Source of the DNA: the human T2T-CHM13v2.0 reference genome, Homo sapiens
Reading direction: 5' to 3' (one strand)
DNA length: 64,000 nt
Assembly: GCF_009914755.1 (NCBI RefSeq)
Contig: NC_060932.1
Part shown: positions 7,471 to 13,929 of the stretch, one piece after another
How the letters are laid out: every line of letters begins with the position of its first letter
How positions within the stretch are numbered: the first letter of the stretch is position 1
Notes under the pieces: model-generated
Databases searched by the model: none
What the model was told of the DNA's origin: nothing
Seen by the model: only the letters and a program-made list of their open reading frames with translations
Made by a program: the position numbers and the translations under genes

Positions 7471-8095
7471 CAGACTCTTAGTTTTAATTTTTTTTGCTCA
7501 ATGAACCCAGATACAATGTTATTTCTATCACTATCACTGAGGTTTCACAGCTTTGTGTAAGCACTATAATGAAAATATGTCAACTCTTGAGGGCATTCTT
7601 CTTTAGGAAAACCTGATAACAGCAGGACCTTTTAAATTACATCCTGTAGATCGATTTGACATTACTTTTTCAGCTGTCCTCCTGAGGTCTCTCGGAAGGT
7701 ACAAAGAAAAGGAAACAATCATTCTTTTATGGCTATCATAATTACTGAAATGGAATCACATGGTATTTCTGCACCCTGTTTGCAAAAGCATGCCTCTTTG
7801 TTGAAATGTTGTGAGAAAAAAAGAGAAAAGTTTTATTACATGTCAAAGTTTGCTGATACTCGGAGATGACATCTTCCCACTTTGGATTCCTGTCACTTAC
7901 AGTTACTTGAGGTAGAGAGAGACAACCCCATTTCAAATAAAATCTACCTACTTAACGACCACTCTCTTTCATGCTGCTATTATGCTTTTGCTATTTAAAT
8001 ATAATGTAATAATAATGCTTTAGGCACAACTGATTCCTAATTTTGTTTTACCTACATGTTACTTTCCCTGCTATAAATTGTTTGCTTGATTTTCT

Positions 8096-8549
8096 TCTTT
8101 TTTTTTTTTTGACAGTCGTTGGTATATTTATTTGAAAATTAACCTCATTAATTCATGGTCATATATCTTAACAATACAATAGAATTATAAGGCCATGTCT
8201 TATGATCCTTTTGTATCTCCCTCATAACATGTTACTGATCGTGGAGTAAGCTTTCAATAAATATTGAATTAAACTGATGACTGTTATAGAGACCTAGGCC
8301 AAACACAGGTTGGGAAAGATAAAATCAAGAATCAAAATTCTGGATAACAAAATCGGTGCAGATAGCAACTGAAAATGCTTCATAATTTTAAACATTTGGT
8401 TCTCAATAGTAGATAGATATTTTTTCAATATAGTTTGGGTTGTATTGATTCCAACAGTGTACTGGGAGCTGAGAACCAAATTTTACCTTATCTCTGCCTC
8501 TAAAATTAGGCAAGTTACATAATTCACTTAGTATCTCATTTTCCTTTTC
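8096..8549 (-). other. L1-mediated 3' transduced segment with its own poly(A) tail
   Basis: T-tract 8096-8110; TTTATT (AATAAA on -) at 8127-8132; non-L1 DNA 8111-~8549 enclosed with the L1 by TSD tgtttgcttgattttct (8079-8095 and 13667-13683). Confidence 0.9.
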
Positions 8550-11500: not shown

Positions 11501-13666
11501 TAGTCTTGCTAGCGGTCTATCTATTTTGTTGATCCTTTCAAAATACCAGCTCCTGGATTCATTAATTTTTTGAAGGGTTTTTTGTGTCTCTATTTCCTTC
11601 AGTTCTGCTCTGATTTTAGTTACTTCTTGCCTTCTGCTAGCTTTTGAATGTGTTTGCTCGTGCTTTTCTAGTTCTTTTAATTGTGATGTTAGGGTGTCAA
11701 TTTTGGATCTTTCCTGCTTTCTCTTGTGGGCATTTAGTGCTATAAGTTTCCCTCTACACACTGCTTTGAATGCGTCCCAGAGATTCTGGTATGTTGTGTC
11801 TTTGTTCTCACTGGTTTCAAAGAACATCTTTATTTCTGCCTTCATTTCGTTATGTACCCAGTAGTCATTCAGGAGCAGGTTGTTCAGTTTCCATGTAGTT
11901 GCGCGTTTTTGCTGAGATTCTTAATCCTGAGTTCTAGTTTGATTGCACTGTGGTCTGAGAGAGACCCTACAGAAGCTCTCTTCTGGCTTGTACGGTTTCT
12001 GCCAAGAGATCCGCTGTTAGTCTGATGGGCTTCCCTTTGAGGGGAACCTGACCTTTCTCTCTGGCTGCCCTTAACCTTTTTTCCTTCATTTCAACTTTGG
12101 TGAATCTGACAATTATGTGTCTTGGAGTTGCTCTTCTCCAGGAGTATCTTTGTGGCATTCTCTGTATTTCCTGAATCTGAACGTTGGCCTGCCTTGCTAG
12201 ATTGGGGAAATTCTCCTGGATAATATCCTGCAGAGTGTTTTCCAACTTGGTTCCATTCTCCCCATGACTTTCAGGTACACCAATCAGACGTAGATTTGGT
12301 CTTTTCACATAGTCCCATATTTCTTGGAGGCTTTCCTCATTTCTTTTTATTCTTTTTTCTCTAAACTTTCCTTCTCGCTTCATTTCATTCATTTCATCTT
12401 CCATTGCTGATACCCTTTCTTCCAGTTGATCGCATCGGCTCCTGAGGCTTCTGCATTCTTCACGTAGTTCTCGGGCCTTGGTTTTCAGCTCCATCAGCTC
12501 CTTTAAACACTTCTCTGTATTGGTTATTCTAGTTATACATTCTTCTAAATTTTTTTCAAAGTTTTCAACTTCTTTGCCTTTGGTTTGAATGTCCTCCCGT
12601 AGCTCAGAGTAATTTGATCATCTGAAGCCTTCTTCTGTCAGCTCGTCAGTCATTCTCCGTCCAGCTTTGTTCCGTTGCTGGTGAGGAGCTGCGTTCCTTT
12701 GGAGGAGGAGAGGCGCTCTGATTTTTAGAGTTTCCAGTTTTTCTGTTCTGTTTTTTCTCCATCTTTGTGGTTTTATCTACTTTTGGTCTTTGATGATGGT
12801 GACGTACAGATGGGTTTTTGGTGTGGATGTCCTTTCTGTTTGTTAGTTTTCCTTCTAACACACAGGACCCTCAGCTGCAGGTCTGTTGGAGTACCCTGCA
12901 GTGTGAGGTGTCAGTGTGCCCCTGCTGGAGGGTGCCTCCCAGTTAGGCTGCTCGGGGGTCAGGGGTCAGGGACCCACTTGAGGAGGCAGTCTGCCCGTTC
13001 TCAGATCTCCAGCTGCGTGCTGGGAGAACCACTGCTCTCTTCAAAGCTGTCAGACAGGGACATTTAAGTCTGCAGAGGTTACTGCTGTCTTTTTGTTTGT
13101 CTGTGCCCTGCCCCCAGAGGTGGAGCCTACAGAGGCAGGCAGGCCTCCTTGAGCTGTGGTGGGCTCCACCCAGTTCGAGCTTCCCAGCTGCTTTGTTTAC
13201 CTAATCAAGCCTGGGCAATGGCGGGCGCCCCTCCCCCAGCCTCACTGCTGCCTTGCAGTTTGATCTCAGACTGCTGTGCTAGCAATCAGCGAGACTCAGT
13301 GGGGCAGGACCCTCTGAGCCAGGTGCAGGATATAATCTCGTGGTGCACCGTTTTTTAAGCCCGTCGGAAAATCGCAGTATTTGGGTGGGAGTGAACGGAT
13401 TCTCCAGGTGCCGTCCATCACCCCTTTCTTTGACTAGGAAAGGGAACTCCCTGAGCCCTTGTGCTTCCTGAGTGAGGCAATGCCTCGCCCTGCTTCAGCT
13501 GGCGCACGGTGCGCGCACCCACTGACCTGCGCCCGCTGTCTGGCACTCCCTAGTGAGATGAACCCGGTACCTCAGATGGAAATGCAGAAATCACCCGTCT
13601 TCTGCGTCGCTCAGGCTGGGAGCTGTAGACCGGAGCTGTTCCTATTCGGCCATCTTGGCTCTTCCC
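8550..13666 (-). mobile_element. L1PA2, complete at the 5' end, with ~1-kb internal deletion; ORF1 and ORF2 disrupted
   Basis: Begins GGGAAGAGCCAAGATGGCCGAATAGG at 13666. ORF1 pieces at 12861-12646 and 12494-11967; ORF2 pieces at 11845-8911. The 3'UTR has the GCTAGATGACGAGTTAGTGGG pattern (GAG, not the L1HS ACA). Degenerate A-tail ~8550-8606. Confidence 0.95.
13150..13666 (+). promoter_or_regulatory. L1 5'UTR antisense promoter region with frameshifted ORF0
   Basis: ORF0 start MAGAPPPASLLPCSLISDCCASNQRDSVG at ATG 13218. A 1-bp deletion near 13302 gives an early stop at 13358. Donor-like sites CAG|gtgcag (13322/13323) and CAG|gtgccg (13407/13408). CpG-rich. Confidence 0.75.
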
Positions 13667-13929
13667 TGTTTGCTTGATTTTCTAAATTATTAAATGCAAC
13701 ATCATGATCGGAGTAATGTAAGGTTGGTATAAAAACTTGAATAATAATGCTAACATTTATTATGACAAAATGATGTTCCTACAGTTTCACAACCATAAAA
13801 TTGAGAGAAATTCTGCACAATTCTGTGTTGTGCTTTATGTCAATTAAAAACAATAACAGAAACTTATAATGAGGTAATTATCCACTTTTACTTTTTTATC
13901 AAGCTACACAGAACTTAGCTAAAATCCTA

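What the first reader, a model, noticed from the sequence alone, without database searches (positions are those of the whole stretch)
8079..13683. L1PA2 carrying a ~430-bp 3' transduction: DNA imported from another locus
Seen: the 17-bp TSD tgtttgcttgattttct abuts the L1 5' end (13667-13683). Its partner is not at the L1's own tail (~8550-8606) but at 8079-8095, beyond ~430 bp of non-L1 DNA, a second poly(A) tail (8096-8110) and an AATAAA 16 nt before that tail (8127-8132, - strand). The target reads ttt|AGAAAA on the - strand, an L1 endonuclease-type site. Established: this two-tail architecture is the signature of L1 3' transduction. Inference: 8111-8549 (with L2-like and MIR-like bits) is a barcode of the parent L1, which sat in a MIR. 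Repeat masking would treat it as native sequence.
Basis: partly seen in the sequence, partly recalled or inferred. Interest (0 to 1): 0.8.

Follow-up and report, generated by a model that had tools for sequence, protein, structure and literature searches.

The report
L1 with chr1-derived 3' transduction
An old, dead L1 retrotransposon in a CNBD1 intron on chromosome 8 carried 441 bases copied from chromosome 1 when it inserted, a textbook 3' transduction whose parent L1 is no longer at the chromosome 1 site in this assembly.

Summary
An exact 17-bp target-site duplication (8079-8095 and 13667-13683) brackets one minus-strand unit. In order it holds an L1 body (13666-8610), its own patterned A-rich tail (8609-8552), 441 bp of non-L1 DNA (8551-8111) and a second tail, A13GA (8110-8096). 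An AATAAA lies 16 nt before that second tail.

The 441 bp have one other copy in the assembly, on chr1 at 164855622-164856062 (431/441 identical, no gaps). There the sequence is ordinary contiguous DNA with no A-run after the cleavage point.

The chr1 site has no L1 directly upstream and no young L1 within 10 kb either side. The parent was probably an allele that never fixed and was lost. No sibling copies were found.

The L1 is not intact. About 968 bp are replaced by 13 bp of filler at 11963-11975, which removes the ORF1 C-terminus and the ORF2 endonuclease region. The remaining reading frames are broken.

The ten differences between the two copies suggest an age between roughly the human-chimpanzee and human-orangutan splits.

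This is a well-known mechanism, so interest is low. Not tested: the outgroup comparison, the L1PA2 label, and the MIR/L2 claim.

The parts
13667..13683 (-). Target-site duplication, the copy upstream of the L1 5' end. On the minus strand it reads AGAAAATCAAGCAAACA.
   Evidence: It is an exact 17/17 match to 8079-8095, and these are the only two exact copies in the window.
8610..13666 (-). L1 body, from a near-complete 5' UTR start to the end of the 3' UTR. It is a dead copy: the ORF1 start is at about element position 905, and the frames are broken by many stops and shifts.
   Evidence: 96.6-97.2% identity to 5 of 5 other L1 copies compared. Pfam Tnp_22_trimer, Transposase_22 and RVT_1 match, and no endonuclease or ORF1 C-terminal domain was found in the 5 ORFs scanned; six-frame reading.
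11963..11975 (-). A 13-bp filler (CTTCTGTAGGGTC on the minus strand) at an internal deletion of about 968 bp. The deletion runs from about element position 1692 to about 2660 and removes the ORF1 C-terminus, the inter-ORF spacer and most of the ORF2 endonuclease region.
   Evidence: in 5 of 5 compared copies, about 967 bp lie between the points that flank the filler here; junction sequence; of 40 scored matches (1097 candidates), only the self-match spans the junction.
8552..8609 (-). The L1's own A-rich tail, patterned and interrupted: 58 nt, 46 of them A. It was read through during transcription.
   Evidence: One search reports two imperfect 32-nt tandem units at 8545-8608.
8111..8551 (-). 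Transduced segment: 441 bp copied from chr1 164855622-164856062 (plus strand there). It begins AAGAAAAGGAAAATGAG, the presumed 3' target-site duplication of the parent.
   Evidence: 431/441 identical, no gaps, and the only other copy in the assembly. One search gives the same result for the proximal 172 bp.
8127..8132 (-). AATAAA poly(A) signal of chr1 origin, 16 nt before the cleavage and tail site.
   Evidence: Searches show the same signal at the chr1 locus, followed after the cleavage point by TATCTATGTGAGTGG.
8096..8110 (-). Terminal poly(A) tail, A13 then GA. It is not templated at chr1.
8079..8095 (-). Target-site duplication, the copy downstream of the terminal tail.

Best explanation
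This is a single L1 retrotransposition event that carried a 3' transduction.

Shown by the sequence: the architecture at chr8, the chr1 origin of the extra segment, and the direction of transfer from chr1 to chr8.

Inferred sequence of events:
1. A full-length L1 of L1PA2-like age once sat on the plus strand of chr1, directly upstream of position 164855622. It had inserted at a CCAT|AAGAAAAGG site.
2. Its transcript ran through the element's own weak poly(A) signal and genome-encoded A-rich tail.
3. The transcript continued through 441 nt of flanking chr1 DNA. It was cleaved and polyadenylated 16 nt after a flanking AATAAA, upstream of a GU-rich stretch.
4. That RNA was reverse-transcribed into a TTT|AGAAAA site (minus strand) in what is now a CNBD1 intron on chr8. 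This produced a 17-bp target-site duplication around L1, tail, chr1 segment and second tail.
5. The parent at chr1 is absent from this assembly. Most likely it was an unfixed allele lost by drift. Much less likely, it was precisely excised.
6. The chr8 copy then decayed. Its frames broke, and about 968 bp were lost with a 13-bp filler, which looks like end-joining repair after insertion.
For: 1. A single exact 17-bp duplication encloses both the L1 and the extra DNA.
2. There are two A-tails. The internal one is 58 nt and only 79% A. The terminal one is a clean A13 run. Both have been at chr8 for the same time, so the internal tail was probably already degenerate, meaning it was genome-encoded in the parent.
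3. The extra 441 bp have exactly one other copy in the 3.1-Gb assembly, at chr1. It is 431/441 identical and collinear with no gaps.
4. At chr1 the sequence is contiguous with its flanks and has no A-run after the cleavage point, while chr8 has A13 there. The direction is therefore chr1 to chr8 through a polyadenylated RNA.
5. AATAAA lies 16 nt before the tail, and TGTGAGTGG lies just after the cleavage point at chr1.
6. Both junctions look like endonuclease targets: AATTT|AGAAAA at chr8 and CCAT|AAGAAAAGG at chr1. Cleavage sites of this kind (TTTC/AA, TCTT/AT and similar) are tabulated in the review PMC4859970 (passages seen).
7. The same review states that a 3' transduction typically shows two homopolymer stretches and carries the source's 3' target-site duplication within the transduced sequence.
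8. The L1 identity of the body is supported by Pfam ORF1 and reverse-transcriptase domains and by about 97% identity to other genomic L1 copies.
Against: - The donor site on chr1 has no L1 in this assembly, neither adjacent nor as a young copy within 10 kb either side. The parent is therefore inferred, not seen.
- No sibling insertion shares the tag.
- The start of the chr1 homology is purine-rich, but CCAT|AAG is only a loose match to the endonuclease consensus.
- No outgroup or population data were available to show that 8096-13683 is absent as one block anywhere.
- The 968-bp deletion removes the endonuclease region. If it had been present in the RNA, the element could not have mobilised itself in cis.
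Confidence: 0.88

Rival explanations
1. Reverse-transcriptase template-switch chimera. ORF2p primed on the poly(A) tail of an independent chr1 transcript ending at 164856062, copied it to its 5' end, then jumped to the 3' tail of a full-length L1 RNA and copied that. No L1 ever sat at chr1.
For: The chr1 donor site has no L1. The product of such a switch (L1, then A-tail, then the other RNA, then A-tail, inside one duplication) would look the same as what is seen. Chimeric retrocopies made this way are described in the literature (recalled, not read here).
Against: - The internal tail is 58 nt long and interrupted 12 times, while the terminal tail of the same age is a clean A13 run. That fits a genome-encoded old tail better than a fresh RNA poly(A).
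- The chr1 homology starts at an A/G-rich, endonuclease-like site, as expected for a parent's target-site duplication.
- After the switch the enzyme would still have to copy about 6 kb to the very 5' end of the L1.
- No evidence for an independent chr1 transcript was available.
Confidence: 0.06
2. Two separate insertions that happen to abut: a processed retrocopy of a chr1 transcript, and an L1 that landed exactly at its edge.
For: The sequence after the internal tail (AAGAAAAGG...) and the flank before the L1 5' end (AGAAAATC...) share a 6-nt AGAAAA. This could be read as a very short duplication for the L1 alone.
Against: - A perfect 17/17 duplication encloses the whole unit.
- The 6-mer is native chr1 sequence.
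- No direct repeat flanks the 441-bp segment alone. One search found 3 direct-repeat families in 7900-8700, and none sits at the boundaries.
Confidence: 0.02
3. DNA-level duplication or gene conversion between chr1 and chr8, unrelated to the L1.
For: Two 98%-identical copies exist on different chromosomes.
Against: - The chr8 copy ends exactly 16 nt after an AATAAA in an A13 run that chr1 lacks.
- It starts exactly at the L1's tail.
- It lies inside the L1's target-site duplication.
- The flanks beyond the 441 bp share no homology.
Confidence: 0.01

Closest known systems
LINE-1 3' transduction
   Same: Read-through of the L1's weak poly(A) signal into downstream flank, followed by retrotransposition of the chimeric RNA, as reviewed in PMC4859970 (passages seen). 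This insertion shows all the structural marks: an L1 with its own tail, a unique flanking segment, a downstream AATAAA, a second tail, one enclosing target-site duplication, and an endonuclease-type target. The first descriptions and genome surveys (Moran 1999, Goodier 2000, Pickeral 2000, Szak 2003) are recalled or were seen only as reference-list entries. They are not held in the library.
   Different: Nothing in kind. The particulars here are a 441-bp tag from chr1, a parent absent from this assembly, no siblings, and a later internal deletion of 968 bp.
Transductions whose source L1 is not in the reference genome
   Same: The tag maps to a locus that has no L1 in the assembly, so the parent is inferred from the offspring. 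[quoted passage not shown]
   Different: Those cases are young L1HS events whose parents still segregate in people. Here the two copies differ at 10 of 441 sites, so the event is millions of years old and the parent is probably extinct rather than polymorphic. This is also not an 'orphan' transduction, because the L1 body is present.
L1-mediated chimeric retrocopies made by template switching
   Same: They have the same overall layout: two RNA-derived parts in one orientation inside one target-site duplication, with a terminal poly(A). This comparison is recalled, not read here.
   Different: In the described chimeras the 5' part is usually a small RNA and the 3' part is an L1, Alu or mRNA. 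Here the 5' part is a whole L1 with a long degenerate tail, which fits read-through better.

Membership tests
L1 3' transduction | An L1 sequence ending in its own A-rich tail, followed by non-L1 DNA. | tested here: met
   The L1 body is 13666-8610. The tail is 8609-8552. The non-L1 stretch 8551-8111 has a single other copy genome-wide.
L1 3' transduction | A second poly(A) tail at the end of the extra DNA, not encoded at the donor locus. | tested here: met
   A13GA lies at 8110-8096. At the same point chr1 continues TATCTATGTGAG.
L1 3' transduction | One target-site duplication enclosing the L1 together with the extra DNA. | tested here: met
   The 17/17 exact repeat at 8079-8095 and 13667-13683 gives the only two exact copies in the window.
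L1 3' transduction | A poly(A) signal 10-30 nt upstream of the second tail. | tested here: met
   AATAAA is at 8132-8127, 16 nt before the tail. It is also present at chr1.
L1 3' transduction | An endonuclease-type (T-rich|A-rich) target at the new site. | tested here: met
   The minus strand reads AATTT|AGAAAATC. Comparable sites are tabulated in PMC4859970.
L1 3' transduction | The extra DNA maps to another locus, where it is ordinary contiguous sequence. | tested here: met
   chr1 164855622-164856062, 431/441 identical, no gaps, with unrelated flanks on both sides.
L1 3' transduction | The extra DNA begins with the parent's 3' target-site duplication. | tested here: inconclusive
   It begins AAGAAAAGGAAAATGAG at a CCAT|AAG site, which is endonuclease-like. 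With no parent in hand, the matching 5' copy cannot be shown.
L1 3' transduction | Corroborating feature, not a defining one: a parent L1 still present directly upstream of the donor segment. | tested here: not met
   There is no L1 adjacent. Within 10 kb either side there are only old fragments of 74-77% identity. Parents absent from a reference assembly are a known situation.
L1 3' transduction | The whole unit is absent as one block, leaving one duplication copy, in genomes that predate the insertion. | not testable with these tools
   No primate genomes other than this assembly are held.
LINE-1 (L1PA2-like subfamily) | ORF1 and ORF2 protein domains of L1. | tested here: met
   Pfam Tnp_22_trimer (E 2.9e-31), Transposase_22 (E 1.2e-59) and RVT_1 (E 6.2e-38) match in 2 of the 5 ORFs scanned. 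The endonuclease and ORF1 C-terminal domains were not found, which agrees with the deletion.
LINE-1 (L1PA2-like subfamily) | Subfamily-diagnostic bases, and assignment by a repeat library (RepeatMasker/Dfam). | not testable with these tools
   Only indirect evidence is available. The 3' UTR trinucleotide reads GAG at 8704-8702 on the minus strand, not the ACA or ACG of the human-specific Ta and pre-Ta groups; that diagnostic is recalled. The 5' UTR is about 905 nt. The best other copies are 96.6-97.2% identical. L1PA3 is not excluded.

The most novel reading that the evidence does not exclude
The insert may not be a read-through product. It could be a template-switch chimera, in which ORF2p started on an independent polyadenylated chr1 transcript and jumped to the tail of a full-length L1 RNA. 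That would explain directly why the chr1 site carries no L1. A second unexcluded variant is that the 968-bp deletion was already in the RNA, so that a tagged L1 lacking its endonuclease was mobilised in trans.
Probability: 0.07. Interest if true: 0.4.

Novelty: new member of a known kind. Interest (0 to 1): 0.2.

Why it matters
The mechanism has been textbook knowledge since about 1999-2000, and reference-genome surveys of it exist. This instance adds no new biology.

Its modest value is as a clean, fully resolved example with three practical points:
- The 441-bp tag records a chr1 L1 locus that no longer exists in this genome. It gives a precise site to look for the parent in ape assemblies or human pangenomes, for example through incomplete lineage sorting.
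- The tag is unmasked 'unique' DNA that is in fact a 98% paralogue of chr1. This can mislead read mapping or orthology calls in the CNBD1 intron.
- The ten differences between tag and donor date the event independently of L1 subfamily clocks.

Tried and rejected
- **Sibling insertions with the same tag.** Whole-assembly searches with 8096-8549 and with the proximal 181 bases (E up to 10) each returned only the window itself and chr1.
- **A parent L1 near the donor.** BLAST of this L1 and of one more complete copy against 10 kb on each side of the chr1 segment found only a 167-169-bp fragment (74-75% identity) about 4.5 kb upstream and a roughly 1-kb antisense fragment (77% identity) 9 kb downstream.
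- **A shared deletion junction, which would indicate a deleted lineage spread in trans.** Of 40 scored matches (1097 candidates), only the self-match spans the junction. The other 39 match one side only. The tool scores only the best candidates, so this is not exhaustive.
- **MIR/L2 content of the tag.** Low-stringency BLAST against the rest of the window and 20 kb of chr1 gave 2 weak hits (E 0.36), within the range of 1-9 hits for 20 shuffled queries. This is uninformative, and no repeat library is held.
- **Rfam on 7900-8700.** There was 1 match, SNORD46, at 18.3 bits against a gathering score of 40 (E 0.43). It was treated as chance.
- **Alternative target-site duplications.** One search found 3 direct-repeat families in 7900-8700 and none in 13560-13800. 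None sits at the element boundaries.
- **Literature.** Szak 2003 and Pickeral 2000 are not held. A search for CNBD1 + LINE-1 + transduction gave 1 paper, which concerns somatic tumour inserts and is unrelated. So it is not known whether this instance is already listed in a catalogue. No supplements were consulted.
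Full report
**Where this is**

The window is G000:C8:88536001-88600000. According to the hub's annotation supplied with the finding, that is T2T-CHM13 chr8, inside the last intron region of CNBD1. The element lies on the strand opposite to the gene.

**Check of the observation**

- The 17-mer TGTTTGCTTGATTTTCT lies at 8079-8095 and at 13667-13683.
- These are the only 2 exact copies in the window. With up to 3 mismatches there are 3 matches in total, the third being a 3-mismatch site at 874-890.
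- The bases just outside the two copies differ, so the duplication is exactly 17 bp.

Read on the minus strand, the unit is laid out as follows:

| Feature | Window coordinates | Notes |
|---|---|---|
| Flank and target site | – | AATAATTT\|AGAAAATCAAGCAAACA |
| L1 start | 13666 | GGGAAGAGCCAAGATGG... |
| L1 body | 13666-8610 | ends ...CTTAAAGTATAAT |
| L1's own tail | 8609-8552 | 58 nt, 46 A, 12 interruptions |
| Non-L1 DNA | 8551-8111 | 441 bp |
| AATAAA | 8132-8127 | 16 nt before the tail |
| Terminal tail | 8110-8096 | A13 then GA |
| Second duplication copy | 8095-8079 | exact match to the first |

**Where the extra DNA came from**

- A search of the whole 3.1-Gb assembly with 8096-8549 found two places, the window itself and chr1 (G000:C1:164855624-164856062), at 98% identity.
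- Realigned, window 8551-8111 on the minus strand equals chr1 164855622-164856062 on the plus strand. It is 431/441 identical with no gaps.
- At chr1 the segment is ordinary contiguous DNA. Upstream it reads ...TTCCTTGCCCAT|AAGAAAAGGAAAATGAG. Downstream it reads ...CCAACGACTGTC|TATCTATGTGAGTGG.
- After ...GACTGTC, chr8 has A13 instead.
- The A-run is therefore untemplated. The end point lies 16 nt after an AATAAA and just before a GU-rich stretch. The copy went from chr1 to chr8 through a cleaved, polyadenylated RNA.

**The parent**

The empty site is what was found.
- No L1 lies upstream of chr1:164855622.
- In 10 kb on each side there are only two old fragments. One is 167-169 bp at 74-75% identity, about 4.5 kb upstream. 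The other is about 1 kb at 77% identity, antisense, 9 kb downstream.
- The start of homology (CCAT|AAGAAAAGG) is a purine-rich, endonuclease-like site, as expected if the segment begins with the parent's 3' target-site duplication. Without the parent this cannot be proven.
- No sibling insertion carries the tag, either for the whole segment or for its proximal 172 bp. Each search gave 2 of 2 candidates, self and chr1.

**Age**

- The two copies differ at 10 of 441 sites (2.3%).
- Three of these are adjacent: CCACG at chr8 against CTGTG at chr1. That pattern is consistent with decay of two neighbouring CpGs.
- Divergence values taken from my own knowledge are about 1.2% human-chimpanzee, 1.6% human-gorilla and 3.4% human-orangutan. 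Under those values:

| Assumed divergence | Poisson probability |
|---|---|
| 1.2% | 10 or more differences: 0.044 |
| 1.6% | 10 or more differences: 0.18 |
| 3.4% | 10 or fewer differences: 0.12 |

- The event is therefore old. It falls roughly between the human-chimpanzee and human-orangutan splits, and 10 differences cannot resolve it further.
- At that age a parent still segregating in people is unlikely. Loss of an unfixed allele is the simplest reading (inference).

**The L1 itself**

- Pfam finds the ORF1 trimerisation and RNA-binding domains and the reverse-transcriptase domain. It finds no endonuclease domain and no ORF1 C-terminal domain in the 5 ORFs of 80 aa or more that were scanned.
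- Alignment to 5 of 5 other genomic copies (96.6-97.2% identity) shows why. About 967-968 bp of L1 are missing between window 11976 and 11962, replaced by 13 bp (CTTCTGTAGGGTC).
- In element coordinates, about positions 1692-2660 are gone: the ORF1 C-terminus, the spacer and most of the endonuclease region.
- Only the self-match spans this junction among 40 scored matches (1097 candidates). The deletion therefore looks private to this copy. With its filler, it fits end-joining repair after insertion. This is an inference, and a deletion made during integration is not excluded.
- The rest is a dead copy with many stops and frameshifts. The ORF1 start is at about element position 905.
- The 3' UTR trinucleotide is GAG. 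By recalled diagnostics this excludes the human-specific Ta and pre-Ta groups and fits L1PA2 or somewhat older.
- The formal subfamily label could not be tested.

**Mechanism and rivals**

- The best explanation is classical 3' transduction. The transcript read through the L1's weak signal and its genome-encoded tail, a flanking poly(A) site was used, and the RNA was then integrated by target-primed reverse transcription at a TTT|AGAAAA site.
- The review PMC4859970 (passages seen) gives the expected marks: two homopolymer stretches, and the source's 3' target-site duplication within the transduced sequence. These are what is seen here.
- The main rival is a template-switch chimera between an independent chr1 transcript and an L1 RNA, which would need no parent at chr1.
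- I rate it at about 6%, for three reasons. The internal tail is long and heavily interrupted while the terminal tail of equal age is clean. The chr1 breakpoint looks like an endonuclease target. The enzyme would also have had to copy a whole L1 after the switch.
- Two abutting independent insertions, or a DNA-level duplication, are contradicted by three features: the single perfect enclosing duplication, the untemplated A13, and the exact coincidence of the segment's ends with the L1 tail and a poly(A) site.

**What is not supported or not tested**

- The 'L2-like and MIR-like bits' and the statement that the parent 'sat in a MIR' could not be tested. A crude local BLAST was no better than shuffles.
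- Outgroup absence could not be tested.
- Whether this instance is already in a published catalogue is unknown. The classical surveys are not held. The one paper holding CNBD1, LINE-1 and transduction concerns tumour inserts.

**Verdict**

This is a real, cleanly resolved 3' transduction. It is a well-known kind of event, with a lost parent as its only mildly notable feature, so interest is low.

Noticed in passing
window 11963-11975 (context 11925-12015): An internal L1 deletion of about 968 bp, with a 13-bp filler, removes the ORF1 C-terminus and the ORF2 endonuclease region. No other scored copy in the assembly shares the junction.
   Followed up: yes
window 12962-13463: The RefSeq 'enhancer' feature listed with the finding lies wholly inside this L1's 5' UTR, at about element positions 204-705 on the minus strand. 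The feature is therefore L1 promoter-region sequence.
   Followed up: no
window 8545-8608: The L1's own tail contains two imperfect 32-nt tandem units (78% identity), which suggests a duplication within the A-rich tail.
   Followed up: no
G000:C19:45625827-45629176 and G000:C1:212094657-212096566: Two other L1 copies match this element in two adjacent pieces on opposite strands. This is the pattern of a 5'-inverted L1 insertion.
   Followed up: no
window 8241-8243 versus chr1 164855930-164855932: Three adjacent differences between tag and donor (CCACG against CTGTG). They look like independent decay of two neighbouring CpGs in the two copies.
   Followed up: partly
L002:1190-1300 (chr1, about 200-300 bp upstream of the donor segment): By eye this stretch looks like part of an Alu element in reverse orientation (recalled resemblance, not tested). 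It is not L1.
   Followed up: no
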